Assembly (NCBI GenBank): GCA_051453625.1
Contig: JBOZIK010000001.1
Location: 16,356,299 to 16,389,575, forward strand
Direction of reading: 5' to 3'
From: Welwitschia mirabilis
Lineage: Eukaryota
DNA: 33,277 nucleotides
Of this stretch, positions 3,565-32,280 are shown one piece after another (the stretch's first letter is position 1; each line of letters opens with the position of its first letter). Under the pieces are notes generated by a model that was given only the letters and a program-made list of their open reading frames with translations, had not been told where the DNA came from and did no database searches. The translations under genes were made by a program, and so were the position numbers.

Positions 3565-3664
3565 NNNNNNNNNNNNNNNNNNNNNNNNNNNNNNNNNNNN
3601 NNNNNNNNNNNNNNNNNNNNNNNNNNNNNNNNNNNNNNNNNNNNNNNNNNNNNNNNNNNNNNNN

Positions 3665-10903: not shown

Positions 10904-11380
10904 TCCCTATAAGATCAATTTATGTTAAATAAACTTCTTTACATTCAACTGACATCAATCTCTAGGATTACTCAAAGGTGCAAGAAGTAAGATCTACTAA
11001 ATTAACATGGCAATTACTTACATGAAGCATAAAGTATAGGCTAAGTTTGTTGCAAATAAAAATCAATGTGATAACCCTCAAGATTACACGAAGTATGAGG
11101 GGTAGACCTAATAGATTACTGAATTAAAATATGAATTCTTAAAATTTCACTTGAAAGTAAAGAAAGGAAAACTATAAGAAATAAAAGTTATAATTTGCAA
11201 AAAAAGAAATTAAAGTACATTTCAAATGAATAATGAAATAAATACTTGTATACCAAAAGGTAATCAAGCAATTGCAAATAGATTCAAAAGGATAAAATAC
11301 AATAATACTAAAATAAACAAATTAAAATGAGTTCAAAATACTTACTTAAGTAATAACAATATTTCTTTCTCTTTAAATCT

Positions 11381-11398
11381 TCCATAGCAATGGTGCTA
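11381..11398 (-). promoter_or_regulatory. Degenerate tRNA-Asp-type PBS of unit C
   Basis: The minus strand reads TAGCACCATTGCTATGGA, 3 nt from the LTR end, at the same position as the PBS at 5433-5450. Confidence 0.8.
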
Positions 11399-11401
11399 AA
11401 A

Positions 11402-12448: not shown

Positions 12449-14431
12449 TCCACAATAGTGGAATATATAACATGGCATTTAAAAAATAAAATAGACTATG
12501 GCATAATGTGATATCTAGTAGATTTTATATTATGGAAAAGTATTGATGAATCATACAATGAATTGAAGTTCAAACCCAAACATGTAAGACTTGGTATTGT
12601 AATGGATAGATTTAATCATTTTAGAATGCTTTCTGCTTCTTATAGTTGTTGGCCAGTTATGAGGTTATCTATAACTTATCACAGCATCTATGCATGAAAA
12701 GGTCATATGTGATACTTTCTTTGCTCATACTGGGGCCTAAGCAACTAGAAAAAGATATTGATATGTACCTTTAACCTCTTATTGAATAATTAAAGCTACT
12801 ATGATATAAGGGACTAAAAACATTTGATAGACTAAATAAGGAGTTCTTTACAATGAAAGTAGTGTAACTTTGGATGATAAATGATTTTCTAGCATATGGA
12901 AACATCTCAAGATGGAGCACGAAGGGGAGATTAGCATGTCCCATATGTGCTTATAAGACCAATTATTTATGGTTGCTTCATAGTAGGAAACATTACTACC
13001 AAGGCATAGAAGATTCCTTGATAATAATAATAGGTATAGACAAATGAAAAGACCTTTTAATGGTAAAGTAAAAAAAGAAGAAGAACCCATGTCATTAAGT
13101 AGTGAAAAGATTCTTTTTCAGCTTGACAACATAAATATTACTTCGGGGAAGTGAATTTCTAAACATTAATAAAAGAGAACAAAAATGCCAAAACATTAAA
13201 ATCGAGAAAACCAGTTAAAGGTCACTCCACCTAGTTAATTTAAAAGATCACATAGCAAATGCAAGAAGGTCATTTTGGACATTCAAGAGAAAAGGCATAG
13301 AAATAGATGGAAAAAGAGATCAATACTATTTAATCTCCTATATTAGAAGGTAACAAAAGTTTATAAAATAGTTTATTTATAAATTCTTTTTCTTTCTTAT
13401 GATTCTATTTAATACCTTTTTCATTTCTAACATATACACAGGAACATGATGTTCGACATAATTTGGATGTTATGCATATTGAAAAAAATGTTTATGAAAG
13501 CTTACTAAGCACTATCCTCAATATAAGAGGAAAATCAAAGGATAATTTTAAAGCATGACTTGATCTAAGAGAGCTAGATATCATAGATAAACTTTCACCC
13601 ATTATGATGAATGAAGGTAAAAAGGCATTCCTTCCACTTGCTAGTTTTGTGATGTCAATACAAGAAAAGAATTATTTTCTCAATATGTTATCAGAGTTGA
13701 AAATTCCAAATGGGTATGCATCAAATATTCATATGTATATCCTACAAAAAGAACATAGACTTTCTAGGCTTAAGAGTCATTACTACCATGTCTGTTTGCA
13801 ACTCATTCTTCCCATTGCTTTGCATAACTTACTTCCGTCTAAGGTGCGTCCATTAATAATTCAAATGTGTATATTCTTCAAAGAGATTTATTGCAAGGAA
13901 ATTAATATAAAACTTTTGGGAGAACTAAAATCAAGAATTAGTATCATACTTTGTAATCTTGAGAGAATATTTCCTTGGCTTTCTTCAATATCATGATGCA
14001 TTTATCTATCCATTTGGTAACTGAGATTAGGTTTTGTAGACCCATGAAATATCGATGAATGTATCCTATAGAAAGGTAACAAGCATACTTTTTTTTTTTT
14101 CGCTATAAAAGTAGCTTGTTAATAATTATGAATTAACTATAAAGTTTTTACATGTCTACCTTAGGTTCTTGAAAGTTTTAAAAAGGTATATCAAAAACAA
14201 GAACAAACTAGAGGAATGCATTTCAGAATCTTTTCTTATAGAGGAAGCATTAAATTTTTGCACTAAATACATGATAAATATTGATACATTTAAAAATAAA
14301 TTATAGTGCAATGAAGTTATTAATAATGACTCTAGTAAATAAACTATACATCTAGAAGGAAGATCACTAGGTGTTGCAGATAGAAGAATATTGAGTAACA
14401 TAGAAATTAAACAGGCATATAGATATATGTT
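12449..14431 (+). pseudogene. CACTA (En/Spm) TnpD-type transposase remnant, copy 1 (Transposase_21 and DUF4218-like regions), 5'-truncated by the LTR insertion
   Basis: Translates to STIVEYITWH...PKHVRLGIVMDRFNHF...SYSCWPV...GPKQLEKDIDMYL*PL, then VRHNLDVMHIEKNV, KIPNGYASNI, LKSHYYHV and *MYPIER|FLKVLK. GT-AG introns lie at about 13350-13441 and 14076-14164. Confidence 0.92.
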
Positions 14432-14531
14432 NNNNNNNNNNNNNNNNNNNNNNNNNNNNNNNNNNNNNNNNNNNNNNNNNNNNNNNNNNNNNNNNNNNNN
14501 NNNNNNNNNNNNNNNNNNNNNNNNNNNNNNN

Positions 14532-16521
14532 AAGAAAGAGGACAAAAATGTCAAAACATGGAAAGAAAGAAAACCAATTAAAGGTCATCCCATCATAGCA
14601 AATGTAAGAAAGCCCTTGTGGACATTCAAGAAGAAGAGCATAGCAACAGATGGAAAAAGAAATCAATACTATTTAATCTCTCATGTTTGAAGGTAATAAA
14701 ACTTTATAAAATAGTTTAGTAATAAATTCATTTTCTTTCTTATTATTTTATTTTATATCTTTTTCATTTCTAACATATACATAAGAACATAACATTCAAC
14801 ACAATTTAGATGTTATGTAATTTGAAAAACAATGTTTGTTAGAGGTTGCTAACAACTATCCTTAATATAAGAGGAAAATCAAAGAACAAGCTTGAAGCAT
14901 GACTTGATCTAAAAAAGCTATGTATTAGAGATGAACTTTTACCCACTATGTTGAGTGATGGTAAAAAGACATTCCTTTCACCTACTAGTTTGTGATGTTA
15001 GTACAAAAAAAGAATTCTTTTCTCAAGATTTTATCAAAGTTAAAACTTCGAGATGGGTATTCATTAAATATTCATAAGTATATCCTACACAAAGAACATA
15101 GACTTTTTAAGCTTAAGAGTTATGACTACCATGTTCTTTTACAACTCATTCTTCCCATTTCTTTGTGTAACTTACTTCCATCTAAGATGTGTCCATCAAT
15201 AATTCAAATGTTTCTATTCTTTAAGGAGGTTTGTTACAAGGAAATTACTATAAAACTTTTGGAAGAACTAAAATCAAGAATTGCTATCATACTTTTTAAT
15301 CTTAACAGAATGTTTCCTCTAGTTTTCTTTGATATCATGATGCATTTACCTATTCATTTGGTAAGGGAGGTTAGATCTTATGGCCCTGTGCAATATCGAT
15401 GGATGTATCCTATAGAAAAGTAATAAGAATACTTTTTTTTCCCATAAATATAACTTGTTAATAATTATGAATTAACTATAAATTTTTGCCATGTCTACCA
15501 CTTAGGTTCTTGAAAGTTTTAAAAGGGTATGTCAGAAACAAGAACAAACTAGAGGGATGCATTTTAAAATCTTTTATTATATATGAAGCATTAAGTTTTT
15601 GAATTAAGTACATGACAAATATTAATACATTTAAAAATCGATTATAGTGCAATGAAGTTATTGATAATAACTCTAGTGAATCAACTATACATCTAGAAGT
15701 AGGATCACTAGGTGTTGCAGATAGAAGGATATTAAGTGTCATTGAAATTAAATAGGTACATAGATATGTGTTTTTTAACACACCATGCATTGAATCATTT
15801 GTGACATAAGATAATCATAATTTCATTATTTTATTGTTATTGTATACATTCTTAATTATATTATATGTACAGTTAACACCTACAAGAAATTTGTAGATGG
15901 TTTTTATGAATGACAAAGTCTTCATATCTTTGAATTCATGAGATCACTTTACTACTTGGTTTTAAGAACATGTAATCTATAATGCATTCTATATAAAGGT
16001 ATTAATGGCCATGTAATTTTGATGTCTATAATATGTATGCATATAAATTTGTTGATGTTTCAGATTTACAAGTTAAGAGAAAAAGTCATGCTTAGTGAAG
16101 AACAAGAAAAATAAGTAAAATGATTGTCACATCCTTCAAGTAGACATGCACAAAGTTATAAGGAATACCTAATCAATGGGTATAGGTTTTATGTAAAGGA
16201 AAGAGATGTAAAAATTAACATGTTGAAATAGTGGAGTTTCTATAATTACTTGTACTTCAAGTGTATGAAGTGAAAAGGATAAAAATCCTATAAGTAATGA
16301 TGTAAATTATTATGGTATCTTAAAAGACATAGTCATATTATATTATAATTTCATATTCAATGTTATGGTCTTCAAATGTGAATGAATTGATGTTGTTCAA
16401 TAAGCTAACATCAAGAAGGATGAGTATAGTTTCACGATTATTAATACAAGAAAACACATCAAGGATGATCATGTACAACATGAACCATTCATATTAGCTA
16501 GTTAGGCATCATAGGTTTTCT
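14532..16521 (+). pseudogene. CACTA TnpD transposase remnant, copy 2 / 3' part (DUF4218- and DUF4216-like)
   Basis: ORF 14992-15423 (FPLVFFDIMMHLPIHLVREVRSYGPVQYRWMYPIEK), then YLINGYRF and YYGILKDI...FKCE*ID...KDEYSFT...EPFILAS*AS*VF. 14532-15771 duplicates about 13168-14431. Confidence 0.92.
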
Positions 16522-17408
16522 NNNNNNNNNNNNNNNNNNNNNNNNNNNNNNNNNNNNNNNNNNNNNNNNNNNNNNNNNNNNNNNNNNNNNNNNNNNNNNN
16601 NNNNNNNNNNNNNNNNNNNNNNNNNNNNNNNNNNNNNNNNNNNNNNNNNNNNNNNNNNNNNNNNNNNNNNNNNNNNNNNNNNNNNNNNNNNNNNNNNNNN
16701 NNNNNNNNNNNNNNNNNNNNNNNNNNNNNNNNNNNNNNNNNNNNNNNNNNNNNNNNNNNNNNNNNNNNNNNNNNNNNNNNNNNNNNNNNNNNNNNNNNNN
16801 NNNNNNNNNNNNNNNNNNNNNNNNNNNNNNNNNNNNNNNNNNNNNNNNNNNNNNNNNNNNNNNNNNNNNNNNNNNNNNNNNNNNNNNNNNNNNNNNNNNN
16901 NNNNNNNNNNNNNNNNNNNNNNNNNNNNNNNNNNNNNNNNNNNNNNNNNNNNNNNNNNNNNNNNNNNNNNNNNNNNNNNNNNNNNNNNNNNNNNNNNNNN
17001 NNNNNNNNNNNNNNNNNNNNNNNNNNNNNNNNNNNNNNNNNNNNNNNNNNNNNNNNNNNNNNNNNNNNNNNNNNNNNNNNNNNNNNNNNNNNNNNNNNNN
17101 NNNNNNNNNNNNNNNNNNNNNNNNNNNNNNNNNNNNNNNNNNNNNNNNNNNNNNNNNNNNNNNNNNNNNNNNNNNNNNNNNNNNNNNNNNNNNNNNNNNN
17201 NNNNNNNNNNNNNNNNNNNNNNNNNNNNNNNNNNNNNNNNNNNNNNNNNNNNNNNNNNNNNNNNNNNNNNNNNNNNNNNNNNNNNNNNNNNNNNNNNNNN
17301 NNNNNNNNNNNNNNNNNNNNNNNNNNNNNNNNNNNNNNNNNNNNNNNNNNNNNNNNNNNNNNNNNNNNNNNNNNNNNNNNNNNNNNNNNNNNNNNNNNNN
17401 NNNNNNNN

Positions 17409-19780
17409 CTCTTCAGGTTTTGAGAATGTTAATGATTCTTCACAATAAGAGCAAAGAATATCTGATACTATTCTAGGTAATAATAGAAAGATGTTTAAGA
17501 ATAGGCACTCCATTACTTTTTCATTTTTATTAATTATATATCTTCTAATGTATAGGAGAAGGTGGTGTTAGCTCCAATTCCACAAACAGTGGAAAATCAA
17601 AATGCCTTGATCGAGCCAAAGTTCAGCATAATGAGAAGATACAATTGAGATGGAATAAGAAAGGCCAAGCGGTTGATTCAAACAGAGAAGAATTATCATC
17701 CTACTTGGGGAAAATAGTAAGGGATAATAGAGTTGCACCAAAAAATCATAAGAATTGGAGGGAATTACCTGAGAATTTCAAGATTGATGTATGGGAGATG
17801 GTCAAGGCATGTTATTATTCAATAATTATTACACATATGTAACTTGTAATTATTACATCCCATTTTAACGCATGTCAAACATATAGCAAAAATTTGAAGT
17901 GTCTAAAGAGAATAATAACTTAATATTTAAAAATATGGATAGACAATGGTGTGAATGAAAAAACAAAGTGATAAGGGACTTTTATGTTACTTACAATAAT
18001 GACGTAAATAGGCTTATACATGTTTCTAAGGGGTTTCAACCATAACAATGGCAAGAGATGATGGCATACTTTAGTTTAAATGAATGGCAAGTATGTAAGA
18101 TGTATTTTAAGAGTTTTAACATAGAATGCATTCTAAAAGAATTGTTAGGATCTTTTTAGCATTCAATTTTGCTATATGTTAATAGTAATTAAGACAAAGA
18201 ATCAAAAGATATAAGAGGCAACAAGTTTTACATCATATTAGTGGATGAAAAACTATGAAGCAAATATAAGATGATATAGTATAAAGTGTTGAATTAATAA
18301 GAGTAAATTTTTTTCCAATGTGTTGTTTCTAATGTTATAAATACTAATTATTATAGAGAGTTGAGATAGATGATCTATCATCAATAATAGATTGTATGAG
18401 TGTATCAAAAAAGGCACAAATTAGGCCTAATGGATCAGTAGCTACAACATAAACTACTGAAATTACTATAACTATTGAAATTAGCATATTAACTACTAGA
18501 GATAATTGTATTGCACATGTGTTAGAATCATGTATTAGATCTTAAGCATTCTAATAGAGTTCATGCTGCCAGTGACTCTATAATAAGAAAAAGATTTTTC
18601 CAAAGAAAACACCCTTTATGAGATCATATCAAGTTGTTCATAATTTAAATGTAATTAGAAAGGAAAATGAGAAACTTAAAAGAAATTAGCAATGATGGAA
18701 GAAAAAATTTTAAAAATTATAAATATGTTACATCAAGCTGGTCCTGTGGTGAGAATGCAACTTCATTTTTTGTAATGATAATATACTTTTTATTATTTGA
18801 TAACATGATTTTCAAATTATAGAATGGAATTATCTTGAAAACACTCTAATTTGATAATGTTAATTCTTCCATGGTACAAAATAATGATTCAATGAAGGTA
18901 ATAAAGAAATACTTATTTTACTCTATGTACTTTATTGAAATAAAAATATATAAATTAATTTATAACTTTCATTGTTTTCTAGTTTAATGAAGGTGAATCA
19001 TCCAGAAGTAAAGTTGGGAATGAGAAATCGAATATGAACTCAGTTCTAAATAGATCAAGTGGTTCAAAGCAAATTTATAGTAGAAAGGTTTAAACATATA
19101 TTGCCTTATGTAAGTAATGGTTTGAGTTATTTATTACATTACTAAAGTATTTTTCCTTTTTCTAGGATAACACTGTATCACCTTGTCAGTTATTGGATAT
19201 GTACAATAAAGTTGTAGTAAAATAGTAATTATGGGGAGGTATTCCAAATTTATATTTAATAATGAAAGATTAAAAGAAGGATTTCTTACAGTTTTTGTGA
19301 AAGTAGTGAAAAATCCTAAAACACCATTAATAGTACAAGAAAAGGACATTACTACATTAAAGGAGGCAAAAGAAGAGGTTACTGCATGGCCTTCACAATA
19401 TGTTAAGAAGGTAACTAAATATCATTTTATGTTTAATTACTTAGTTATCATTTAAGTTTAACATTAGTCATTATGTTTGTTAATCATATGTAGGTTATGG
19501 ATGGATCACCAAAAGTACCATTACCATTATTGAATAAAGAATTCATTCTCAAGGATGGTCAATGCAATACTGTAGCTATTGGAATAATACTTTTGGATAC
19601 CCCTACATCATTAGTTCATCATGCACTACTTAGTGACCATGCTTACAAAGTTAAATTGGCAGTTATTATAATTTATAGCACTGAGTTATTTTACAAGACA
19701 AGTTTTACAATGACTCTTACTGATGTTGGGGTTAATAGCATTACATCTTAGCCAAAAAAATATACTATAATAATTTAATA
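17409..19780 (+). pseudogene. CACTA TnpA/Ptta-like (Transposase_24-associated) multi-exon gene remnant with C-terminal repeat domains
   Basis: WNKKGQAVDSNREELSSYLGKIVRD..APKNHKNWRELPENFKIDVWEMVK; next exon QKFEV...QWCE*KNK...QWQEMMAYF; exons ~19168-19410 (VFVKVVKNPKTPL...TTLKEA..VTAWP) and ~19495-19775 (VAIG...VHH..L...AYKV...TLTDV...*P). The position after TnpD is typical of CACTA elements. Confidence 0.8.
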
Positions 19781-20285
19781 TTTTATGTGATAGTGTAATC
19801 TTTATTGAGAATTTCTAAAACATTGAAACCATGCAAGACTTATGTCTTGAGTAATTGTTGAATGTGAAAATTGGCCTTTTGTTCCATAGATGCACTTATT
19901 TTATTCATAAATGTAACTCGTAGTTGTTGATGAATCCAATGTCTACTTGGAAGGTTGGTTTTAAAAATCTTATTTATTAATTTTGCATTCAAAATTAATG
20001 AAATCTATAAATTGTAGAAATTTATTACATAAATGTTGGTTGTTGATTTGAAGGGAAAATTTAAGTGCCTATTTAGATGATGGATAGACTATAAGTATGA
20101 ATACACATATTTTGTATATGTGGGATATCATTTCATTTTCCCCTTTTGTTATCTGTAAGGAGGTATACTACCTCTTGATGTAACTTAATCTTAAAAAACA
20201 TATCTTTGTCTTTCACAGAGTGCAAGCATACTTTGCTTTTATTATTTTCAAGTTTTATTGGATCTTACATGTTTGTACATATTAG

Positions 20286-20435
20286 ATGGTATTTTATGTG
20301 TGAGTTGGAGCATCTCATTACAAGGATGTATGAAGGAAGAGTCCTCATATCACTTTCTAGAATATTATCAAAAATAGAGAATATTATCCCTAATCTTAGT
20401 TTTGGCAGGGAACAAGATGTCCATGACCTTTTAAG
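20286..20435 (+). pseudogene. Captured exon of a ubiquitin-specific protease (plant UBP15-19-like)
   Basis: WYFMCELEHLITRMYEGRVLISLSRILSKIENIIPNLSFGREQDVHDLLR|GT matches the recalled WCxxCE.E...S...ILS.I..I...L..GRQEDAHEFLR motif and ends at a GT donor. Confidence 0.78.
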
Positions 20436-20666
20436 GTGAATATTTCTATTTGTTTATAAACTATGTTTAGGCTTGGAGCTAAAAAGTTTTTCTTTTCCTC
20501 TCTCCCATTTATTTAATTACAAGAAACTTATTATCATTTTCTATTTTGTTTGAATAAGTATCATTATGATAGATGCAATTTGTATATCAATAGGCTTGAA
20601 TACTTCCCACTTTCTTATTTGATGACTTTATAGCTTGTTTATCTTTCATTCTTAACATCTTTGTAG

Positions 20667-20770
20667 GTAATATCATATTAATAGAATTATAGCTTAAAGT
20701 AAAGGCACTGAATACTTTAAGGCTTCTTATTATTGTTAAAGCTGGCTTTCTGGATTCTATAGCACTCAAG
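20667..20770 (+). pseudogene. VPS13: Captured exon of VPS13 (chorein N-terminal domain)
   Basis: 104-nt AG|...|GT exon reading (G)NIILIEL*LKVKALNTLRLLIIVKAGFLDSIALK, versus recalled plant VPS13 GDVELTNMQLKPEALNALKLPVKVKAGFLGSVKLK. Confidence 0.78.
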
Positions 20771-20957
20771 GTATTTTAAGAGCATTTTTCAGGAAAGCTT
20801 AGGTTACAGTTTAGAAATAACCCTATGTAAATTAAAATTATTTTTAAGAAGTATACATGACATTTATAGTTTAAGAATTCTCTTATTGTTGTCATTACCC
20901 TTGTATCTTCCATTTAAAATTTTGCATTTACTGTTCATGAATTTAGAACTCATATAC

Positions 20958-21065
20958 CCCAAGTCAAGTATTATAACTATTCTTCCTACATTCATCCAAA
21001 GTTGCTGGCCTCATTTATATCATTTAATACTACATATCCCAAGTCAAGTATTATAACTATTCTTC
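20958..21065. repeat. 28-bp perfect direct repeat, two copies 80 bp apart
   Basis: CCCAAGTCAAGTATTATAACTATTCTTC at 20958-20985 and 21038-21065. Confidence 0.9.
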
Positions 21066-22971
21066 TGATTTAAGATTACGTGTTAGCCTTTAATACTAAC
21101 CTAATTGATAGCCCTTGCTCTTCTAGGGTTCTCTTCAATTCTCTTCTACTTCAAGATTATAATACTATAATCTTAGTTTTCATGCAAACTAGCTCCACTA
21201 GACTTCTTTTACATTGCATTAAGAATGCATTAGGTGTGTTCCCATAATTTAATGCAAGTTCTCTATAGGCTAAATGTTTATGGAAGACTCTAATTATAGC
21301 ATTGTAAAGATCCATTTGGTAGAAATCTTTCAATTAGTCATGGTTGCAACACTACTCCTCAAATATGATCTACCCTAATTTATTCAGTTTGGGTATCAAT
21401 GGTTTCATCTTTATTATGGTTGTTTTTATGGAAGTTAAAATGGCTATTACATAATTTTCTATGTTAGATATCATTACAACATTACAATTATTTTACATAG
21501 ATAAAGAAAGTAGCTTTATCTTATCATGGGAGATTCTCGAGATCTAAATCCAAATCATGTTTTAGACTACTTATGTAATATTACAAAGGAAATTATTTCC
21601 TTTTCTATAGTTTTACAATCACTCAACATCATCATATAAGTAATCTATTCTTACAACTTGATTTTTAGGATTTAAGTACATAACTATAACATGTTGTGGG
21701 GCAAAACGAAGTGAGTACCATAATGACTTTTCATTGGAATGTTGTATATTTGATTAAATGGAGAGCTACATGGTGTTGACTTATTTAATTAAAGAGTACT
21801 TAGTAACTAATTAGTAATTAGTACCTAATGAAAACATTTTCTCATTGCAATTCTTTACTTTGATTTCAAACTCTTACATTTCTTAAAAATAATGAGTAAT
21901 ATTCAAGCCACAACTAGCTTTTGTAAAGGCATTTATCAAAGAACCAAACACAAAAACATCAGGATATAGTTTTCTATTCATAATCCACTAATAGGTTTGT
22001 CATGCCTCATTTTCTTACCTTTCCTAACTTCCTATAAGCAATAATCAAAGTAGCAAATAGTTTACTTTTTAGCTAAAGCCTTTCTTGTTGCATTCTAATA
22101 TGACATATTTTTTATTCATCCAAAGGTAATATCCCTGCATAAAATTGGATGACAGTGGAAAAGAGGACTTAATCAAGACTAATACCTTAGGTATTCATGG
22201 TTTTAAATAAATTAAAAGTGTTATCACATAATCTTCCAATTTCATATTTATTAGAAGCATAGTATCTTTTATTCCCTTTTTCTCTAATAAATGCTCCTTG
22301 TTAGATGTTTTTCATGTCAAAGATTTTCCAGTCTTTGTCATTAATTCTAGCATGATATGATCATGCTTAATATCATAGATCATCTCTAAGGGAATTACTT
22401 TTGTAAAAGTGCCACATGAAACCATTGTATTTATTTTCATGTTAAAATTGTTAATATATTTGCTTTATTGGGATTGTTAATTTTACATATAAATATGGCA
22501 CATCAATTATTAATAAAGATGAGTACACCATGAAGTAAAACAAAGTTCTTAGTTTTCAAATGTCTAAAGAAGAGGAATGGATAAGTGGCTATAGAGCATT
22601 GTATTTCAAAGTAAAGAGCAATAGTTAGGGGAATAAGTATAGAAGAGAGTTGGTTATTTTACTTTTTTTTATATGTCCTCATAGTTTTTGTGTTGTTAAG
22701 AGATGTACTTACATCATGGATATGGTTAAAATGTGTTGTGTTAATACACATTGCTTACTAGATTATCTAACTATTATCACTAAAATAGTTTGATTTTAGG
22801 ATTTATTAAATAGTTATTCCTTCTTGAATTTTTCTAGCTTTTTCTTAAAACATAGGTTTTGTAAGTTTTCTATAATTGCTAGCTTTAGCAATATGAATGA
22901 ATTTGGGATTTCTATAAAAATTTGATGTTCTAGCTGATGATGAAATAAACATGCTTAGTATTGTATTGTAG

Positions 22972-23103
22972 ACTATCATGCCATCAAGTCTAAAGAATCT
23001 TGCACATATACCTATGTGCAAAGGAGAAAAGCTTGTGTGTGTCCTTATTGCAATATACTTATTTCCTATTGCAATTCACTGAAACTGGGCTTATGATGAG
23101 CTA
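22972..23103 (+). pseudogene. Captured exon of a lysine/histidine transporter-like (LHT8-like) amino-acid transporter
   Basis: 132-nt AG|...|GTAAG exon reading TIMPSSLKNLAHIPMCKGEKLVCVLIAIYLFPIAIH*NWAYDEL, versus recalled TMPSTFKHPAHVPMWRGAK...LIA.C.FPI.IGGFWAYGNL. Confidence 0.85.
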
Positions 23104-23414
23104 GTAAGTTTCCTTTCATTTGATTTATTCTTAACAAGCTATTATCAATGTTTTATCTTTAAAATATTCTTATCCATACTCTTTATGATTTTAATGATTC
23201 TATGTTTACTACACTAAGAAAAGTCAACAAATAAGAAGAAATAAAAACATTTGTTACTAATTTTGATGAATTAATGTTTTCTATATCAAAGAAGTATAGG
23301 ATGTAAGAAGAATTAAAACATTGAGAGAGAATTAGTACAAGAGCACTAAGAAAAGGAAGAAATTCTATCCAAATATAAAAAGTTGATGATCATCTACTAT
23401 TTACAAGGCACTAA

Positions 23415-24070
23415 ATACAAGAGTTGAGAGATTTAATAGTAGGAGAAGAGCTTGTACCTGAAGTGAGTGCTTTATTGACTTAATAATTATTCAAGAATAA
23501 TACATTAAGGCTTCTAATCCAATGTCTACCTAAGTTAAATTTGGAGGCATGTAAAGATATAACCCAAGTATTTGCAAATTTGTAGAGGTAATGAGTGTAG
23601 TAATAAGTTATTGCTTTTGATTATTTCAAATCAAAAAAAGACCTTCTTGATCTATTGATATAAGGGTATGAAGACATTGATCTAGCCTTGTATCATGGTT
23701 CAACATTAAAATATTTCATATGCCATCAAAGCATTAGTGAGATGCTGCTACTACATTTAAAAAACTTTTAACTAGANNNNNNNNNNNNNNNNNNNNNNNN
23801 NNNNNNNNNNNNNNNNNNNNNNNNNNNNNNNNNNNNNNNNNNNNNNNNNNNNNNNNNNNNNNNNNNNNNNNNNNNNAGACATAAATCAACTATAGCAAAC
23901 CTTATTATTAAGAATTAAAATTAGCTTTTAGCTTAATATGATTCAAAGCTTCTAGATTATTCAAACTACATTCTAGGACAACAAGTAGTTAAACTTCTTA
24001 AAGGCATTTTACTAGATCTTTCAAACTTAATAGCTATAAGATGTTATGCAAGCTACGTTAATGGTTAGAA
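23415..24070 (+). pseudogene. MO25: Intron-less MO25/CAB39-like gene fragment
   Basis: [35 protein letters not shown]...GYEDIDLALYHG...HQSI / DAATTFKKLLTR [gap] RHKSTIA...YDSKLLDYSNYILGQQVVKLLKGILLDLSN, a strong match to plant MO25. Confidence 0.92.
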
Positions 24071-24164
24071 CAATGTCCCTTGAACTTCATATCTAAGAAC
24101 ACAGACAATGCCTTTATATTCCTTATATAGAAAAACTCATGGTTAGATATTAGAAATTCATTTC

Positions 24165-24345
24165 CATTTCAACAATTGCCAATGTAAAGGACTAACCATT
24201 GCAATGAAACATAGGACTGTCTAGAGATATTTAGGCGCCGAAATCATTCCCCACATAAAAATAGATTATAGGGCATTGAGATAAGCCCTCTATGACTGTA
24301 TATCACTCCTTTTAAATTAGCAGTTATTCTTGAAGTGTAGATAGA
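24165..24345 (-). pseudogene. Fragment of an acyl-activating enzyme (AMP-binding, AAE family)
   Basis: Minus strand with two frameshifts: IYTSRITANLKGVIYSHRG/AYLNAL*SIFMWGM..PKYL*TV/MFHCNG*SFT, matching YTSGTT..PKGVVYSHRGAYL...YLWT.PMFHCNGW. Confidence 0.88.
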
Positions 24346-25431
24346 TCCTTCTTTACTTTTTTTCACTTATAAATAAGGATGAGGTAAATGTAACATCTTG
24401 GCTTTCACCTTTTCATTTAGTGAAGTATATGATAATAGTATATGTATATTTACTAGGTATGAAATGGAGGAATTCTCCTAAAATGATTATTGTCAATAAC
24501 ACTTCTAAGAAGACCACATAACCCCTGGTTCAATGAACTCTATAAAGATAACAAATGTTGTCCTCTCCTATGTAAAAGTAGTATAGTTAGAATTTGAGTG
24601 TTGATGCTAAACAAGATTTTCATCCCTTCATAATTCTTATCCATCATTCTAGATCTGCATTATCTATTCTCCCCTATTTCTAGAGCATTTTATTTCAACG
24701 TGCTCCCCTATTTCTAGTGTTTTTGGCACTAAATATGTTAGTCTCCTTTAACTGAGCTGGTTTCATCTATCTTTTCTCTTTTCTCCTCTTTGAATGAATT
24801 CATGTAACTGCTTATTCAATGTGGTTGTCTTGCATTTTATCTTCCTAGTATAAAATACCATGAATGATTGTCAATGCTAATCAAAAATCAAAGGAAAAGG
24901 CTTAAGAAATGGTAAGTAAGAGATGCATGCCCATAAAATGTTTTTCAAAGAAGTAGTGGCAAGCACAAAAGTAGTTCCAATCTTAACTTTCTATCATAAA
25001 TATACTAGCATCTTTTTAAATAACTTAGATTCATCATGATTAACATTAGAAAGAGATGAGTCTTCTTAGATTCAAAATATCCAAATCCTCTTAACCTTCT
25101 TAATTATTAAATAAGTAGTATTTAGAAGTTAGAATAATAAGAGAAGACTAGCAAATCACTGATCTAGGATATATAGTAATAAACTATAGGAATATTCAAT
25201 GATGTGGAAAGATTGGATATTCTTACTCCACATGTTATCCTATTTCTATGATTGAGTCACTGAAGATTCTGATTAAGAGATACCAATCTCTCATGGAAAA
25301 AATCATTAACTTATGCAAATAAATGCATTACAATAAGTCAAACCTTAATAATGGCATCTATTTAAGATGTAGTAGGGGACCATACCTTAGAATAGGAATT
25401 GTATCTTAAGGAAGTAACAAAAATATTTAGG

Positions 25432-25852
25432 GACCATTACACAACTTAATATGAAAAAGACAATTAAATAAACTTGACTGACATCTCTCTCAATAATTCT
25501 CTTTCTGATTTAGGGACTATTACCCTCCCTTTTGATAAAAGTGAAAATCCCATTAGAGAGAGGATTACATCTATATGGCTTTACATCATACCTTGATAAT
25601 TAAGAAGGCCTACAAATTACATCAAGAATAATTATGGAAATCCTCTTGTTCTCATCACAAAAAATGAAATAGATAACTCAAATAACATATTTAATCCTAA
25701 ATAAAAGGTTTTAAATGATAAAATCAAAATCAAAATATAATCTAATTACTTATTAGAGGTCTCAACCATAATCAAGAAAGATGGATGCAATGTAAAAGGG
25801 TGCTTTGTTCAGTCTATTTTGAACAGCTAAAATAGAAGTAAAAGGCTATACA
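25432..25852 (+). pseudogene. Intron-less glycoside hydrolase family 1 beta-glucosidase (BGLU40-like) C-terminal fragment
   Basis: HYTT*Y...SDLGTITLPF...SIWLYIIP...NYIKNNYGNPLVLITKNEID...IKKDGCNVKGCFVQSILNS...GYT; ITKNE is the degenerate ITENG nucleophile motif. Confidence 0.9.
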
Positions 25853-27572
25853 CATCAACCTCTAATTGATCTGCCAACATTACACTTGAGAAAAGAAGTG
25901 AAAGCGAGATAAAGTAGACACTTGTGTGAGATTTACATAATAGACAGGGCATGATAAGCATTATGAACTTTGTATCTATTAAAAATTGAAGGCCCTTTAC
26001 TTTTATAATTGACTATGATTTTTGTTAAATGCAACATTCAAAGCCAATCTTATTTATTATTTGTCATTTTCTTTTTAGAATCATTATCAATTATCTTTGG
26101 GTTGTAGAACTAATTACTTAGTATTTGTTATCTAAATCTAAATACAAAGATCACTATATTAGTATGTAAGTTTGTGAAATCATAAGAAAAGGAAAAAAAA
26201 GTAAGGATGTGAGAGAAAGGTATGTTTGCAAATAGAAAATAGAGACAGAGGCCTATAATTTATAAGGAATGTTCAATGGAAATGTGACACTTTTACTACC
26301 GCTGAATTCATAGCAATACAGAGACACTATGACCCTTAAGATGAAGGAGAGAATCAAAGAATTATAAGCTAGCAAGGAAAATCAACAGGCTTGTAACATT
26401 TCACAACTGCCCCTACAATTTTTGTACTATTATTACTTTATCAAAAAAAGGATTGTGGACTCAAGGAAAAAAGTGAAAACATAAAAACAAGCTTACACTA
26501 CATGAATACATGCTACCCTGAAACAACAATCACAAAGAAGAAGATATCAATGTATCATAGCAATATAAACTAGCTAAACATTGATTATAGACCAAAACCT
26601 CCATTTTTAATCTCCTAGTCTTATCATAGGCATGGGATAACCATCATGAACATATTACCACCTAATTTTACATATTAGATAGACCCACCATTATAATGTA
26701 TTTATCACATGCAGAATTTAATAGAAGCCTCATCACTTGTGTTGATCTTCCATCTTATGAAACTAGTTTAAGTATCATTTATATGTAGAATAGGCAAAAT
26801 AAATGTTCTATTCTATAATNNNNNNNNNNNNNNNNNNNNNNNNNNNNNNNNNNNNNNNNNNNNNNNNNNNNNNNNNNNNNNNNNNNNNNNNNNNNNNNNN
26901 NNNNNNNNNNNNNNNNNNNNNNNNNNNNNNNNNNNNNNNNNNNNNNNNNNNNNNNNNNNNNNNNNNNNNNNNNNNNNNNNNNNNNNNNNNNNNNNNNNNN
27001 NNNNNNNNNNNNNNNNNNNNNNNNNNNNNNNNNNNNNNNNNNNNNNNNNNNNNNNNNNNNNNNNNNNNNNNNNNNNNNNNNNNNNNNNNNNNNNNNNNNN
27101 NNNNNNNNNNNNNNNNNNNNNNNNNNNNNNNNNNNNNNNNNNNNNNNNNNNNNNNNNNNNNNNNNNNNNNNNNNNNNNNNNNNNNNNNNNNNNNNNNNNN
27201 NNNNNNNNNNNNNNNNNNNNNNNNNNNNNNNNNNNNNNNNNNNNNNNNNNNNNNNNNNNNNNNNNNNNNNNNNNNNNNNNNNNNNNNNNNNNNNNNNNNN
27301 NNNNNNNNNNNNNNNNNNNNNNNNNNNNNNNNNNNNNNNNNNNNNNNNNNNNNNNNNNNNNNNNNNNNNNNNNNNNNNNNNNNNNNNNNNNNNNNNNNNN
27401 NNNNNNNNNNNNNNNNNNNTTTTATTTTATACAATCTCACAAGATCAAAGTTTATTTTCATCATAAGTAATTGGTTTTTCACAAGTATCTCTACCAACAT
27501 TTTCATTTTTGTGTTTTTATAAGAAATTGGTTTTTATTAAAACCTAACTATGAGTGTTTATTCTTATCTTAG

Positions 27573-27629
27573 GTACACATGAAGTACTTGAAATAAGGGG
27601 CTAATATAAGAGTTATAGCTTCTTGTTAG
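27573..27629 (+). pseudogene. Captured 57-nt exon of homocysteine S-methyltransferase (HMT)
   Basis: AG|GTA CAC ATG AAG TAC TTG AAA TAA GGG GCT AAT ATA AGA GTT ATA GCT TCT TGT TAG|GT = VHMKYLK*GANIRVIASC*, versus the recalled HMT exon VHMEYLEAGADIVVTSSYQ (19 codons). Confidence 0.7.
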
Positions 27630-28399
27630 GTAGATGATAATCCTATCTATTTTATAACAACATAGATTGACTTTAACTTTAGCTTTGCTTATCTTACTTA
27701 AGTATCCTATGAGAAACATTTCTAATTCTTTCTGATTTTTTAATTTCTTTAATCATCAAAATAAGTCTAATTGCTAAAAGATATAAACAAGGCCATCGAA
27801 ATTAAAAATAGAGGGATATTACTTAATAACATAAGTAGATATTAGTTAAAGTTACATTTATTCTTTGCATAAAGATTTAAAATAAAAAAATTAAAAAATA
27901 AAAAAACAGATTTTGATGTATTTATTTTATTGTTTTTTTTCTAGGTGATGCCTTTTGAGGAATTTATTGGATAAACACTTTTAAAGATATTTTAAGGCTT
28001 TTTTCTGAAGAAATGACTTAGAAGAAATGTGTTATGGATAATTCCTCCTTAGGATATTCCATATTATCCTTGTCCTAGTTTCTCTAGTACAAAAGTAATA
28101 ATTTATCAAAAATGATATTCTTATTAATGAAGCATTTATCATAAGATGATATATCCCTTTTGTTCTCTACATATTAGATTTTAGATAAACATTACCTTTT
28201 TAATACTTTAAAACATGTATGTATGTAGGAAATGAGAAGGTCTTAAGGATTTTATATATACCTCATAACCCATGCCAAACCCCCTTTAGAGTTTTACTAG
28301 TAATTAAAAAAATATATTCTATTCATTAAATAGTTTTCAATGATTATAGCCTTCATGTAATATTCCTTTTTATCATATTTAATAGTCAACATTTTAATA

Positions 28400-28920
28400 T
28401 AAAGGAATACTTAATTTATTAAAAATTACAGCATAATTATATACTAATATGATCAAATGGAAGTATCTATTTATTATCACAATAGAAAGTTTACTTTCTA
28501 AACCTTGTTCAAGACTTGAAATAGTGGTTAAAGGAAATGACATGTAGTATAACCTTCATTCCCATCTTGAGGCACTTAAGGATCAGCCAAGTTTATCATT
28601 GACTACATTAATCCTATCTATCCAACTCCACCTAATATGATAAGCTTAATACTTAAGATTAAAGAATACAATCTTATAATTTAAGGGTTACAAACTTTAA
28701 CTATATACTGGAATCTAGTAATTACATTAAAATCACTCTTAACAAATAATCAATTAATCATAAACTAGTTTTGAAACATTACATTTCCTTACCCTTAATT
28801 TATTCGCTCATCCTTAAGATAAGGCTCTTTAGGTAATGGACTGCTTATACTTGTATCTACTTATTCTTTCTCATCTATCTTCATTGCTATTTCTACAAAA
28901 ATTTATTTTGACATACAAGT
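28400..28920 (-). mobile_element. Probable chromovirus (Tekay/Del-like) Ty3/gypsy 3' remnant: pol end, PPT and start of LTR
   Basis: The minus strand reads ...CTTAAGGATGAGCGAATAAATTAAGGGTAAGGAAA TGTAAT (LTR start at 28783), resembling the GAGGACGAA....TAAGGGGGGAAGAA TGTAA end motif. Boundaries are uncertain. Confidence 0.4.
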
Positions 28921-29072
28921 CAATTTATGAATATAAAGAAATAAACATATAGCATACAATAAACCCATTTTTTAGTTGAATATCTAGGGAAAGTTCTATT
29001 TCATGAATTACTTATTCTCCCATGTGTTTTAATTACAGTGGATTAATTTCATTAATACTTTATTAATGATAT

Positions 29073-30607
29073 TGTTTTGGCATTTTCCATTATGAGAATT
29101 TAGAATGTCTTCAGCTTATATGTCAAATGTAGATTTGTTTTTAGTAAGATGTTTTTCTAGTTAAGTGTATAATATTGGATTTTATCTTAATTGTCTAGTT
29201 TCAATAGGCTAACATGGTAAATTTAGTTTTCATAATTCCACTTATCAAATATTTTATGTCATTATCTAGATAGGTTAATACCAAGAACATCAAACACTGA
29301 TAGGCCTTAGATCATGATGAATCTTTAAATATAAAATCTTACAAAAAGGATTAGTTATTCAAAAGAAAAATCATTTGTTTAAAGATGTATTAAAAATTAA
29401 ATATGTCTTTAATAAAGATGTCTAGGAAATTAAAGACATCTTGAATGTATGAGAAATTATGTCCCAAGCTTGAAATAACTATCTTATTAAGATGACTATG
29501 CTAAAATTAAACTTGACACAAATAAAGATATCTACATGTTTGAAGACATCTATATTGAGTTAAAATGGGTAACAAATTCAATTGGTTTTTGACTAATATA
29601 TTATATTTTAGATAATCTATTAGATTATACATTACAAATTCATAATCATGGAGGTCCAAGTAAATTCCATCAAAATCTAAGCAAGTTTACTAAATACATG
29701 TACAAGGTAAAGACATCTAATTGTTAGTAGACATCTGTAAAACTAAAGATGTCTTGGATCAAAGTTCACATCAATAAAAATCAAAGTTATGTTCCTAAAA
29801 CCTAAACATTTCCTACCCATTACATGATAGTTACAAGATTAAATGACTACATTTCAAGCTCAAATGACTAGATCTTCTTTGCCTATATAAAGCCTTAACA
29901 TTACAAAATAAATAACAAGTATTGAAATCTTAAAGAATACTTGGGTTTTGAATCTTGACAAACAATGATTAGATCATGAACAAAAAATGCATGAGTGAAA
30001 GGAACTTCTTATAAAGAATCAAATGGATTATTTATAAAGGATCTTTCATTACTCTTATCATTCACTCTTGGATTTTCATTACTTCATCCTTCATTTACAC
30101 TTATGATAGCAACAACAACATCAAGGATCTCAAATATTCATTAAAGTTATATATTTAGACTTATTTTTGTATTGTATTTTTGGTTCTACAATATTGGACT
30201 ATCTTATTATTAAATATTCTTATAAGTTCATTCTTCATTATTAAACATATTGTAAGGAAACCCTTGTATGGGTATACATTTGAGGTTGTGCCTATGAGTA
30301 CTTATTTGTTATAAGGTTATTGTTGAGCTAAAAAACTATCATTACCTTATGGAAGAGAGAGTGCTATCTTGTGAGAAGACTCTCAATTATTGTAAGATTG
30401 ATGGTATACTAGAAAATCACTATTTTCTAAAAAGTTAAAAATATCTAGAGGTGTGAGGAAAAGGTAACCTCTAAGTGTGGATGAAAATAGGTTGAAAAAT
30501 TACATTACTTACTAAGGTATTTTATTATGAATTTTCATTCGATCATTAGTTTAAATTTTATTTGGTAGAATTCATTCATCCCTCTCATCTGAGTTCAACA
30601 ATCTTCA
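29073..30607 (+). repeat. 5' LTR of a SIRE-like Ty1/copia element (left boundary uncertain)
   Basis: Ends ...ATTCATCCCTCTC...AATCTTCA before the PBS; cluster of AGAYRTCT palindromic motifs at 29416-29754; TATA box GCCTATATAAAG at 29881. Confidence 0.6.
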
Positions 30608-30609
30608 AG

Positions 30610-30621
30610 TGATATCAGAGT
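30610..30621 (+). promoter_or_regulatory. Degenerate tRNA-iMet PBS
   Basis: TGATATCAGAGT versus TGGTATCAGAGC, 2 nt after the CA LTR end and ~35 nt before the gag ATG. Confidence 0.8.
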
Positions 30622-30656
30622 CAATACTCATAATTAGTAACTTTTTTGAGTAAATA

Positions 30657-31866
30657 ATGGAAGGGATGCCATCCATTAAACCTCTACTCTTCAGACAGAT
30701 AAACCATAACTCTTGAAAGATAAGGATATAGATGTTTTCACAATCTTATGAGTTTCACATTTGAAAAAATAATGAGTTTCACATTTGAAAAAATAAAGAT
30801 GAACATTTACAAAACTAAAGTAGGGATAAAAATGTCTAATGAAGAAGCTTATTATATTCTTATGATCATTGCACATTCTCAATAAGAAAAAGATAAGATA
30901 ATAGAAGAATATAAATCAGATAGTAAAGATGACAAAAGTTTGAAAATTCAAGAAAGGCACAAACTAATTTTTAAAGAGTTTATTAAACAATAAAAGATAT
31001 GTATTAAGATGAAAAAGTTACATCATACTCATGAGAAAGCTTACAAATAAAAAAAAATATTAGTAATAAATTACCTTTAGAAAAATCAACTCTTAAAGAT
31101 TAAGTTAGTAGACTAACATGTGAATTATAGTTTTTAAAATAGGAACTATTTGATTCAAAGAAAATCAATAAGAAATTTACCTAAGAAAAGGAGATATTGG
31201 GTATCATACTTAAACAATATAAGTAATCAAATTACAAAGTGGATTGGGATATAATGAAGCTACAAAAAGCTTTTTAGATTTTGTATTTGATAAATGGAAC
31301 TATAAGACAAGGTATAAACATCTAATAAATACAAATAATTTTATTTATTATTATTATTATCATAATATAGGTCATTATCATTGTAGACGTGTAATCAAAT
31401 TTAAAATTAGATATTATATTGATAATGTCAAAAGTGTAAGGATAATTCTACAACATTAATGTAAGATAAACTAAGAAAAATATGAGTACTAAAATTAAAA
31501 CCAACTCTTTTAGCTTAAATAGCACTCAAAGCAATGAATAAGCACATATGGTATGTTGACAATGGATACCCAAGATACGTGATTAAAGATAAATTTGACT
31601 TCACCACTTTGATGTAATAAGATAAAGGAGTTGTAATGTTTAAAGATAATATAGAAGCATTAATCAAAGGTATTGGTATCATTGTAGGAGGTAATCTACC
31701 AAAGGTAAAAGATGTATTTTTTATAGAAGGTTTGGAATACAATCTTTTAAGTAAAAGTCAACTTCACGATGCAAATTTTTCTATTACATTTACAAAAAAA
31801 ATGATTGTATTATTAGAGAGTAAATATTGCACTACCACCTTGCATGTATTTAATAGGGTAGTTTGA
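30657..31866 (+). pseudogene. Heavily deleted Ty1/copia (SIRE-like) gag-protease remnant
   Basis: MEGMPSIKPLLFRQINHNS*KIRI (EG.S..RPPLF.G.NY..WK.RM type); degenerate zinc knuckle at ~31350-31385; protease WYVDNGYPRYVIKDK...VMFKDN...GIG...GLEYNLLSKSQLHD. Confidence 0.85.
30748..30795. repeat. 24-bp perfect tandem duplication
   Basis: ATGAGTTTCACATTTGAAAAAATA repeated twice. Confidence 0.9.
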
Positions 31867-32280
31867 GTAGCTTTGTAAGATATTAAATAGGTTTATGCTA
31901 GATTTCTATGATAATGGAGAGCTTAGATGAAAGATACAAAAACATGTAATCTTCATGATATATTATAACATTTAAAGTAGTTTAGAATATTTTCTATTTT
32001 GAATTAAACTTTCTACAAGGCTAATGCATTTCATGGGTACTTATAAAAATCCTATCATCCACCTCATTATCCAAATGACTATATGAATTATAGAACATTT
32101 AAACCATTAAGAATGCTAACTAAAATAAATTTGTCAGATGACATGGGATTCTTATGCAGTGGCATTGTCTCCTATATTATTTGGATGACCATCAAAAAAA
32201 TGTCTAAAATAATTCTCCACTAAACTTCACCTAACTCTAGCCAACAGGAAAGACAATGAACAGGATAGCACTGAAACTGA

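What the first reader, a model, noticed from the sequence alone, without database searches (positions are those of the whole stretch)
20200..27630. Pack-CACTA-like cargo: at least seven unrelated host-gene fragments packed in ~7.4 kb behind TnpD/TnpA
Seen, in order: UBP exon (20286), VPS13 exon (20667), LHT-like exon (22972), MO25 (23415), AAE (24165, antisense), BGLU40-like (25432) and HMT exon (27573). None is a full gene and all are similarly decayed. Known: CACTA elements (e.g. the morning glory Tpn1 family and soybean Tgm), Pack-MULEs and Helitrons capture gene fragments. Inference: this is the cargo of a transposase-encoding CACTA that captured fragments serially. This density in an element that also retains TnpD and TnpA is unusual. 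The 3' TIR was not found, so element membership is unproven.
Basis: partly seen in the sequence, partly recalled or inferred. Interest (0 to 1): 0.78.

Follow-up and report, generated by a model that had tools for sequence, protein, structure and literature searches.

The report
Decayed gene-fragment patchwork beside CACTA transposase
A stretch of old, heavily mutated plant DNA holds short dead pieces of several unrelated genes packed together next to the remains of a CACTA transposon gene, which is a known and fairly ordinary by-product of transposon activity, and its membership in that transposon could not be proven.

Summary
The mosaic is real but smaller than claimed. Four fragments are solid: a UBP exon (20287-20436), an LHT-like transporter exon (22972-23105), MO25 (23343-24053) and a GH1 beta-glucosidase closest to rice Os3BGlu6 (25429-25830). 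The VPS13 N-terminal exon (20667-20769) is probable. AAE is near noise. HMT has no support.

Each tested fragment is one isolated piece. There are two kinds. UBP, VPS13 and LHT are single exons bounded by AG/GT, so they came from genomic DNA. MO25 (about 229 aa) and GH1 (134 aa) are colinear in one frame with no introns and lack the genes' 3' ends, so they came from spliced RNA.

TnpD is confirmed upstream on the same strand (Transposase_21, DUF4218, DUF4216), but it lies across an 887-N scaffold gap. TnpA could not be confirmed.

I found no CACTA termini, target-site duplication, subterminal repeats, Helitron end or long inverted repeat.

The whole window is uniformly deaminated (CpG o/e 0.04-0.15).

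Best reading, at about 0.5: dead cargo of an old CACTA element. It is a known kind of thing and of modest interest.

The parts
12506..13130 (+). TnpD-type CACTA transposase core (Transposase_21), split over three frames
   Evidence: PF02992 E 5.9e-32 (profile 57-170), with adjoining pieces at 6.6e-9 and 4.5e-6 in the other two frames; 5 in-frame stops in 212 codons.
13251..15772 (+). Two copies of a 1.2-kb TnpD segment, 85% alike, each with DUF4218. They lie either side of the 100-N gap at 14432-14531.
   Evidence: 13251-14431 matches 14594-15772 at 85.0%. PF13960 at E 2e-28, 1.7e-17 and 2.7e-19.
16341..16520 (+). DUF4216, the C-terminal TnpD-associated domain. It runs into the 887-N gap at 16522-17408.
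   Evidence: PF13952 E 5e-10; gap coordinates.
17549..19751 (+). Not confirmed.
   Evidence: No Transposase_24 hit or 36 (10 pieces, E up to 10). One search found no homologue. In one search the nearest family-bearing Atlas cluster is Transposase_24 at 0.82, which is a lead only. One search gave no usable hit.
20287..20436 (+). Single exon of a MYND-type ubiquitin-specific protease (UBP). It ends at a GT donor.
   Evidence: sequence ...TTAAG|gtgaat. Homology to UBP proteins stops at ...LLR, which is the position where P0049 carries an inserted stretch before homology resumes.
20667..20769 (+). Probable single exon from the VPS13 N-terminal (chorein) region, bounded by tag|GT... and ...AAG|gtat
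   Evidence: PF12624 E 0.0044, profile 28-68. VPS13C residues 27-77, E 0.2, the only hit; sequence.
22972..23105 (+). Single exon of an LHT-like amino-acid transporter (Aa_trans), bounded by tgtag| and |gtaagt
   Evidence: Database proteins show introns at both ends of this exon (P0048 and many proteins that read on past ...YGNL).
23343..24053 (+). MO25 fragment, residues about 25-253 of about 335. It is in one frame with no introns, has 14 in-frame stops, and spans the 100-N gap at 23777-23876.
24250..24342 (-). Possible acyl-activating enzyme (AMP-binding) fragment, antisense. Weak.
   Evidence: PF00501 E 0.029, 13.6 bits. Searches found nothing.
25429..25830 (+). GH1 beta-glucosidase fragment, residues 318-450 of rice Os3BGlu6. 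It is in one frame with no introns and has 7 in-frame stops.
   Evidence: The Os3bglu6 gene is listed as pattern 1, which is 13 exons (PMC1781453 Table 1 and text).
27573..27629 (+). Claimed HMT exon: 57 nt between an AG and a GT, beyond the 600-N gap. Identity unsupported.
   Evidence: sequence; no match.

Best explanation
The interval 20.3-25.8 kb is a dead patchwork of transduplicated host-gene fragments. It most likely sits in the 3' half of an old, now immobile CACTA (En/Spm-type) element whose TnpD remains lie upstream on the same strand.

The pieces were probably copied in one after another, by template switching during repair of breaks in the element (gap repair after excision). Some templates were genomic DNA. 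These gave single exons with stubs of their introns: UBP, VPS13 and LHT-like. Others were spliced RNA, cDNA or a retrocopy. These gave the intron-free internal segments of MO25 and GH1.

Since then the whole region has been methylated and deaminated and has no function.

Shown here: the fragments, their two structural kinds, TnpD, and the uniform decay.
Inferred: that the fragments lie inside the CACTA element, how they were captured, and in what order.
For: - TnpD domains lie on the + strand at 12506-16520.
- All five solid or probable fragments are on the + strand.
- Pfam found no competing transposon protein domain between the cargo and TnpD, or within 3.9 kb downstream of the finding's end. 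It was run on both strands of 20200-27630, on the + strand of 12450-20200, and on five of the six frames of 27420-32730/33277. The next transposon domain is a copia Pol_BBD at 31549.
- UBP, VPS13, LHT-like and the first part of MO25 lie in one gap-free contig, 17409-23776. MO25 continues colinearly across the 100-N gap, so 17409-26819 is one physical unit.
- The fragments are too close together to be decayed neighbouring genes. The UBP exon ends 230 bp before the VPS13 exon starts, and each parent is represented by one piece only.
- Gene fragments inside CACTA elements are documented. Tgm-Express1 has five fragments in 5.7 kb (PMC1947982, abstract). Transposase-bearing Chenopodium CACTAs carry one or two (PMC8978399, passages).
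Against: - No CACTA...TAGTG terminal pair beyond chance. Seven pairs matched at 11 or more of 13 positions, and my own estimate of the chance number is about 4-5.
- The En/Spm terminal motif (recalled) is not clearly enriched: 33 matches against 23 +/- 5 in shuffles, and 4 of 100 shuffles reach 33.
- No subterminal motif arrays.
- TnpA not confirmed.
- TnpD is linked only through an 887-N gap. Three of the four 100-N gaps lie exactly between direct repeats about 85% alike, which suggests mis-scaffolded paralogues.
- Intron-free fragments are not what capture by a DNA transposon from chromosomal DNA usually gives.
- No second copy of the mosaic was seen. There is none within the window. There are no close relatives in the protein libraries: best identity is 43-53%.
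Confidence: 0.5

Rival explanations
1. The patchwork belongs to a different vehicle with no coding capacity of its own. [quoted passage not shown] It would lie next to, or be inserted into, a truncated CACTA element, and the neighbourhood would be coincidental in a transposon graveyard.
For: No CACTA termini were found. TnpA is unconfirmed, so the CACTA element may end before 20287. The window is a dense mix of transposon debris. The close MO25/AAE-like junction and the mixed strands fit patchwork filler.
Against: No Helitron-type hairpin followed by CTRR on either strand of 17409-33277. No long inverted repeat or direct repeat brackets the interval. No Helitron or MULE protein domains. All of these negatives are weak in DNA this decayed.
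Confidence: 0.27
2. The intron-free pieces (MO25, GH1), and perhaps the whole mosaic, arose by reverse transcription. In this reading an LTR retrotransposon or LINE machinery switched templates between co-packaged cellular mRNAs, and the product later lost its ends.
For: MO25 is colinear in one frame over about 229 residues and GH1 over 134, with no introns. The Os3bglu6 gene has 13 exons (PMC1781453). Retroelement remains flank the region.
Against: UBP, VPS13 and LHT-like are single exons that keep AG/GT boundaries and stubs of their introns, so they were copied from genomic DNA. MO25 and GH1 lack their 3' ends, which does not fit LINE-type processed pseudogenes. No LTR pair was found.
Confidence: 0.1
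3. The adjacency is partly an assembly artefact. Contigs from different repeat copies were chained together, so the picture of one element holding both TnpD and the cargo does not exist in the plant.
For: There are eight N runs in 33 kb. Three of the four 100-N gaps lie exactly between repeats about 85% alike. The window opens with two copies of a 5-6.5 kb segment, about 7.4 kb apart and 82-86% alike.
Against: The core mosaic lies in one gap-free contig, and MO25 bridges the next gap colinearly.
Confidence: 0.13

Closest known systems
Gene-fragment-carrying CACTA elements: soybean Tgm-Express1 and the Ipomoea Tpn1 family
   Same: Several short fragments of unrelated host genes are packed into a few kb. 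Exons keep usable splice sites. Tgm-Express1 has five fragments in 5.7 kb (PMC1947982, abstract). Tpn1 elements replace their interior with host sequence (PMC5105172, passages).
   Different: Those elements are non-autonomous and have intact terminal inverted repeats and subterminal repeats. Here a transposase lies upstream as scaffolded, no termini were found, and two fragments have no introns.
Transposase-bearing CACTA elements with captured fragments (Chenopodium 'Jozin'-type elements)
   Same: TnpD-type coding sequence and host-gene fragments occur in one element (PMC8978399, passages).
   Different: Those carry one or two small fragments, located 5' of ORF1, within recognisable ends. Here there are at least four or five fragments 3' of the coding region, and the ends are not recognisable.
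Pack-CACTA / Pack-TYPE transposons (Arabidopsis)
   Same: The interior is made of host chromosomal DNA (PMC6379663, passages).
   Different: Pack-TYPE elements are by definition non-autonomous and bounded by CACTA1-type terminal repeats with a 3-bp target-site duplication. Neither feature is shown here.
Processed (retro)pseudogene fragments
   Same: MO25 and GH1 are intron-free, frame-colinear copies of multi-exon genes.
   Different: They are internal segments without the 3' end. They sit in a mosaic with fragments derived from genomic DNA.

Membership tests
CACTA (En/Spm) superfamily element | TnpD-type transposase (Transposase_21 with DUF4218 and DUF4216) | tested here: met
   PF02992 E 5.9e-32, PF13960 E 2e-28, PF13952 E 5e-10, all on the + strand at 12506-16520. 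The gene is broken by frameshifts and stops.
CACTA (En/Spm) superfamily element | Terminal inverted repeats that begin CACTA... and end ...TAGTG | tested here: not met
   no pair better than chance; the recalled 13-nt En/Spm terminal motif gives 33 matches against 23 +/- 5 in shuffles. Decay may have erased the termini.
CACTA (En/Spm) superfamily element | 3-bp target-site duplication | tested here: inconclusive
   Only one candidate pair (235/24422) has equal flanks, AAG/AAG. Its 5' CACTA is not kept in the paralogous copy, and the two ends share no subterminal similarity. I judge it a chance match.
CACTA (En/Spm) superfamily element | Subterminal repeat arrays (TnpA-binding motifs) | tested here: not met
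   no 10-12-mer with at least 3 G+C recurs in a cluster near any candidate end.
CACTA (En/Spm) superfamily element | Second ORF of TnpA type (Transposase_24) | tested here: inconclusive
   No Pfam hit and no homologue. There is an Atlas lead at 0.82 only.
Pack-TYPE (Pack-CACTA) transposon | Interior made of host gene fragments | tested here: met
Pack-TYPE (Pack-CACTA) transposon | Non-autonomous, bounded by CACTA terminal repeats with a target-site duplication | tested here: not met
   No termini found. A transposase lies upstream as scaffolded.
Pack-TYPE (Pack-CACTA) transposon | Several copies, or evidence of mobility | not testable with these tools
   No genome is held. Earlier findings and the metagenome scan were empty.
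Helitron | 3' hairpin followed by CTRR, plus Rep/helicase domains | tested here: not met
   no perfect stem of 6 or more (with at least 3 G-C pairs) followed by CTRRT on either strand of 17409-33277. No Helitron domains. This is a weak negative in decayed DNA.
Pack-MULE | Long terminal inverted repeats flanking the captured fragments | tested here: not met
   the longest inverted pair bracketing part of the interval is 32 nt at 72% (21399/26480).
LINE-type processed pseudogene | Intron-free copy that includes the 3' end and a poly(A) tail | tested here: not met
   The fragments are intron-free, but MO25 stops at about residue 253 of about 335 and GH1 at about 450 of 521.

The most novel reading that the evidence does not exclude
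A transposase-bearing CACTA lineage built up its cargo from two kinds of template. Chromosomal DNA gave single exons with intron stubs. Spliced mRNA or cDNA gave the intron-free internal segments of MO25 and GH1. That would be a natural record of RNA- or cDNA-templated gap repair contributing to gene capture by a DNA transposon.
Probability: 0.12. Interest if true: 0.6.

Novelty: new member of a known kind. Interest (0 to 1): 0.28.

Why it matters
Transposons that collect gene fragments are a recognised source of pseudogenes, false gene models and, occasionally, exon shuffling. This locus adds one old, dead example. In practice it warns annotators that the MO25, GH1, UBP and transporter hits here are debris.

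The one point of wider interest is that genome-derived single exons and intron-free, RNA-derived segments occur in the same patchwork. If both prove to lie inside one CACTA element, that bears on how such elements acquire DNA.

Tried and rejected
**Routes that were closed**
- Whole-genome recurrence test: no genome is held for this window.
- Sequencing runs: 12 rows in 3 studies hold part of 17409-23776. No RNA holder is listed, and none were laid.
- Earlier findings by place, by relatives and by words: all empty.
- Metagenome scan with a 30-nt string across the MO25/AAE-like junction: 0 matches.

**Termini and other vehicles**
- CACTA termini: the exact CACTA/TAGTG pair scan and the recalled En/Spm 13-mer with up to 3 mismatches gave nothing convincing.
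- The 235/24422 pair with AAG/AAG flanks was rejected. The paralogous copy lacks the CACTA, and the ends share no subterminal similarity.
- Subterminal k-mer arrays: none.
- Helitron hairpin plus CTRR: none.
- Long inverted or direct repeats around the cargo: none.

**TnpA**
- Pfam on whole frames and on 10 short pieces, a homologue search and two Atlas look-ups gave only a 0.82 lead to Transposase_24.

**Weak fragments**
- AAE: two PDB searches and a word-seeded homologue search found nothing.
- HMT: Pfam and PDB found nothing.
- UBP and LHT-like were missed by Pfam and PDB. They were confirmed only by the full phmmer search.

**Further fragments and other features**
- Pfam on 10 more + strand pieces of the unexplained intervals found only noise.
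- Rfam found no family.
- Tandem repeats: nothing relevant.

**Readings rejected**
- 'Decayed cluster of neighbouring genes' was rejected. The exons lie as little as 230 bp apart, and each parent contributes one piece only.


Full report
**Setting.** The window is AT-rich (about 28% G+C) and holds eight runs of N. No whole genome is held for it. The best protein matches of the MO25 piece are mostly monocot proteins, and the best solved relative of the GH1 piece is from rice. I take it to be a monocot scaffold, which is an inference. CpG observed/expected is 0.04-0.15 and CAG/CTG about 0.2-0.75 in every segment of the window. So the whole region is old, methylated and deaminated DNA, with no visible contrast between a putative element and its flanks.

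**The observation.** Pfam on all six whole-frame translations of 20200-27630, with stops read as X, found two families. Mo25 scored E 2.6e-23 at nt 23403-24053, and Glyco_hydro_1 scored E 2.8e-8. Both are on the + strand, and nothing was found on the minus strand.

- **MO25.** In the homologue search, 27 of 318 candidates scored E<=1e-5, the best at 8e-47, and all 27 carry PF08569. tblastn with four of them gave one HSP each. It covers residues about 25-253 at 23343-24053 in a single frame, across the 100-N gap. Identities are 105 of 242 aligned columns, and about 45 of those columns fall in the N run or in alignment gaps.
- **GH1.** The piece matches rice Os3BGlu6 residues 318-450 at E 1.9e-32 (115.8 bits). 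The next-best GH1 scores 65.8 bits.
- **UBP and LHT-like.** Pfam and PDB searches missed both exons. A full phmmer search of frame 1 of 20179-23775 against 1.84 billion representatives gave 34 proteins at E<=0.001. Nine hit the UBP exon (best 7.5e-6) and 25 hit the transporter exon (best 8.8e-7). I scanned 10 of the 34 with Pfam. All 5 from the UBP side carry UCH, and 3 of those 5 carry zf-MYND. All 5 from the transporter side carry Aa_trans.
- **VPS13.** Pfam VPS13_N scored E 0.0044 at profile positions 28-68. The only PDB hit is VPS13C residues 27-77 at E 0.2. I call this probable.
- **AAE.** Pfam AMP-binding scored E 0.029. Across the 30 short pieces, six unrelated families scored E 0.057-0.15, so this hit is near noise. 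Three further searches found nothing.
- **HMT.** It is 57 nt with two stops, and nothing matched.
- **Further fragments.** Ten more + strand pieces of the unexplained intervals gave only noise.

The tally is four solid, one probable, one weak and one unsupported.

**Two kinds of fragment.** UBP (20287-20436), VPS13 (20667-20769) and LHT-like (22972-23105) are each a single exon. In each, homology stops at an AG on one side and at GT(A/G) on the other. Database proteins show introns at those same positions in other plants. P0049 and P0048 carry inserted stretches there, and many short 'proteins' read on past ...YGNL. These three pieces were therefore copied from genomic DNA.

MO25 (about 229 residues) and GH1 (134 residues) are colinear in one frame with no interruption.

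- The Os3bglu6 gene is listed as pattern 1, which is 13 exons and 12 introns. Intron positions are described as highly conserved among plant GH1 genes (PMC1781453, passages and Table 1). A 134-residue stretch must therefore cross several exon junctions.
- For MO25, the hits include isoforms X1-X3 of single palm and banana genes, which implies that those genes have introns. That plant MO25 genes have many exons is otherwise my recollection.

Both pieces lack the 3' part of their genes, so they are not classical LINE-type processed pseudogenes.

**Decay.** Identity to the best available homologues is similar across fragments: MO25 roughly 55% outside the gap, UBP 56%, LHT-like 53%, GH1 about 44% (my counts). 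In-frame stops differ. MO25 has 14 in 183 codons and GH1 has 7 in 134. The three exons together have 2 in 136, and the TnpD domains have 11 in 388. The background is about 8% in any frame. In MO25 a run of glutamine and arginine codons has become stops (NL*R**V***), as C-to-T deamination would produce. The numbers are small, and 'similarly decayed' holds only roughly.

**The CACTA context.** TnpD is confirmed on the + strand:

| Domain | Position | E-value |
|---|---|---|
| Transposase_21 | 12506-13130 | 5.9e-32 |
| DUF4218 (present twice) | within 13251-15772 | 2e-28 |
| DUF4216 | 16341-16520 | 5e-10 |

No transposase-associated N-terminal domain was found upstream. TnpA could not be confirmed. 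There was no Transposase_24 hit in whole frames or in 10 short pieces and no homologue. Atlas gave only a 0.82 lead, and the second look-up returned nothing.

No terminal or subterminal signature was found:

- The CACTA/TAGTG pair scan gave seven pairs at 11 or more of 13 positions. I estimate about 4-5 by chance.
- The one pair with equal 3-bp flanks (235/24422) fails in the paralogous copy.
- The recalled En/Spm motif is not clearly enriched.
- No k-mer arrays were found.

There is also no Helitron-type 3' end, no long inverted repeat and no LTR pair around the cargo. Given the deamination, all of these negatives are weak.

**Assembly caveat.** Three of the four 100-N gaps lie exactly between direct repeats about 85% alike:

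- 2183-3564 | gap | 3668-5055
- 13251-14431 | gap | 14594-15772
- 32577-32729 | gap | 32833-32985

In addition, 1-6508 is repeated at 7442-12449. This looks like paralogous repeat copies chained by the scaffolder, or real duplications that the assembler could not close.

TnpD reaches the cargo contig only across an 887-N gap, and the HMT exon lies beyond a 600-N gap. By contrast, 17409-23776 has no gap, and MO25 bridges the next gap colinearly. The unit 17409-26819 is therefore physically credible. It holds the unconfirmed 'TnpA' frames, UBP, VPS13, LHT-like, MO25, the AAE-like piece and GH1.

**What it most likely is.**

- **Decayed gene cluster: excluded.** Exons of unrelated, large genes lie as little as 230 bp apart, and each parent contributes one piece.
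- **Transposon-associated patchwork: best explanation.** The nearest and only coding vehicle is the CACTA element upstream on the same strand. All five solid or probable fragments share its orientation, and no other transposon domain occurs before 31549. I put cargo of an old CACTA element at about 0.5.
- **Rivals.** A separate non-coding vehicle or break-repair filler beside a truncated CACTA is at about 0.27. Scaffold-made adjacency is at about 0.13. A purely reverse-transcription origin is at about 0.1.

The decisive test is recurrence of the same fragment order, with defined ends, at other loci. It could not be run.

**Comparison with what is known.**

- Gene fragments inside CACTA elements are well documented. 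Tgm-Express1 has five fragments in 5.7 kb and is non-autonomous (PMC1947982, abstract). The Tpn1 family is non-autonomous with a host-derived interior (PMC5105172, passages).
- Pack-CACTA elements are defined as non-autonomous with CACTA1-type terminal repeats and a 3-bp target-site duplication (PMC6379663, passages).
- Transposase-bearing Chenopodium CACTAs carry one or two fragments (PMC8978399, passages).
- A 2026 review lists transduplication by Pack-CACTA among the capture mechanisms (PMC13317346, passages).

In the listings and passages I read, I saw no transposase-bearing CACTA with five or more fragments. Those searches were not exhaustive, supplements were closed, and I did not check the Triticeae literature on CACTA-borne gene fragments, which I only recall.

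The locus works like a gene-fragment-carrying CACTA element. It cannot be filed as a Pack-CACTA, because the defining termini were tested and not found, and because a transposase lies upstream.

**Verdict.** This is a real but smaller mosaic than claimed. It belongs to a known kind, is old and dead, and its membership in the element is unproven. The mix of genome-derived exons and intron-free segments is the only unusual feature. Interest is 0.28.

Noticed in passing
3565-3664, 14432-14531, 32731-32830: Three of the four 100-N gaps lie exactly between direct repeats about 85% alike: the sequence just before each gap is homologous to the sequence just after it. This suggests paralogous repeat copies chained by scaffolding, or tandem duplications that were never closed.
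   Followed up: partly
1-6508 and 7442-12449: A 5-6.5 kb segment occurs twice, about 7.4 kb apart and 82-86% alike. It holds a gypsy-type gag on the minus strand (Retrotrans_gag, 4244-4633) and about 1.1 kb lying directly upstream of the Transposase_21 match. The gaps of 93 and 406 N in copy 2 match the lengths of the corresponding stretches in copy 1.
   Followed up: partly
whole window: Methylatable sites are extremely and uniformly depleted: CpG observed/expected is 0.04-0.15 and CAG/CTG about 0.2-0.75. In MO25, glutamine and arginine codons have turned into stops (NL*R**V***).
   Followed up: yes
235 and 24422: This is the only CACTA.../...TAGTG pair with identical 3-bp flanks (AAG/AAG), and it matches at 11 of 13 positions. 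The paralogous copy lacks the CACTA and the ends share no subterminal similarity, so I judge it a chance match.
   Followed up: yes
22972-23105, and database proteins P0028-P0060: Many public 'proteins' of 55-115 aa consist of just this one LHT-like exon read on into its intron (...YGNLVS...). They look like mis-annotated exon fragments in many plant genomes.
   Followed up: no
31549-31776 and 33044-33256: A copia-type Pol beta-barrel domain (E 3.1e-9) and a second Retrotrans_gag (E 3.3e-6) lie on the + strand downstream of the cargo. The gag region is an inverted relative of 4371-4624.
   Followed up: no
23777-23876: The 100-N gap inside MO25 stands opposite only about 21-24 missing residues, so it is a placeholder and not a measured gap. 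The reading frame is kept across it, which would happen by chance one time in three.
   Followed up: yes
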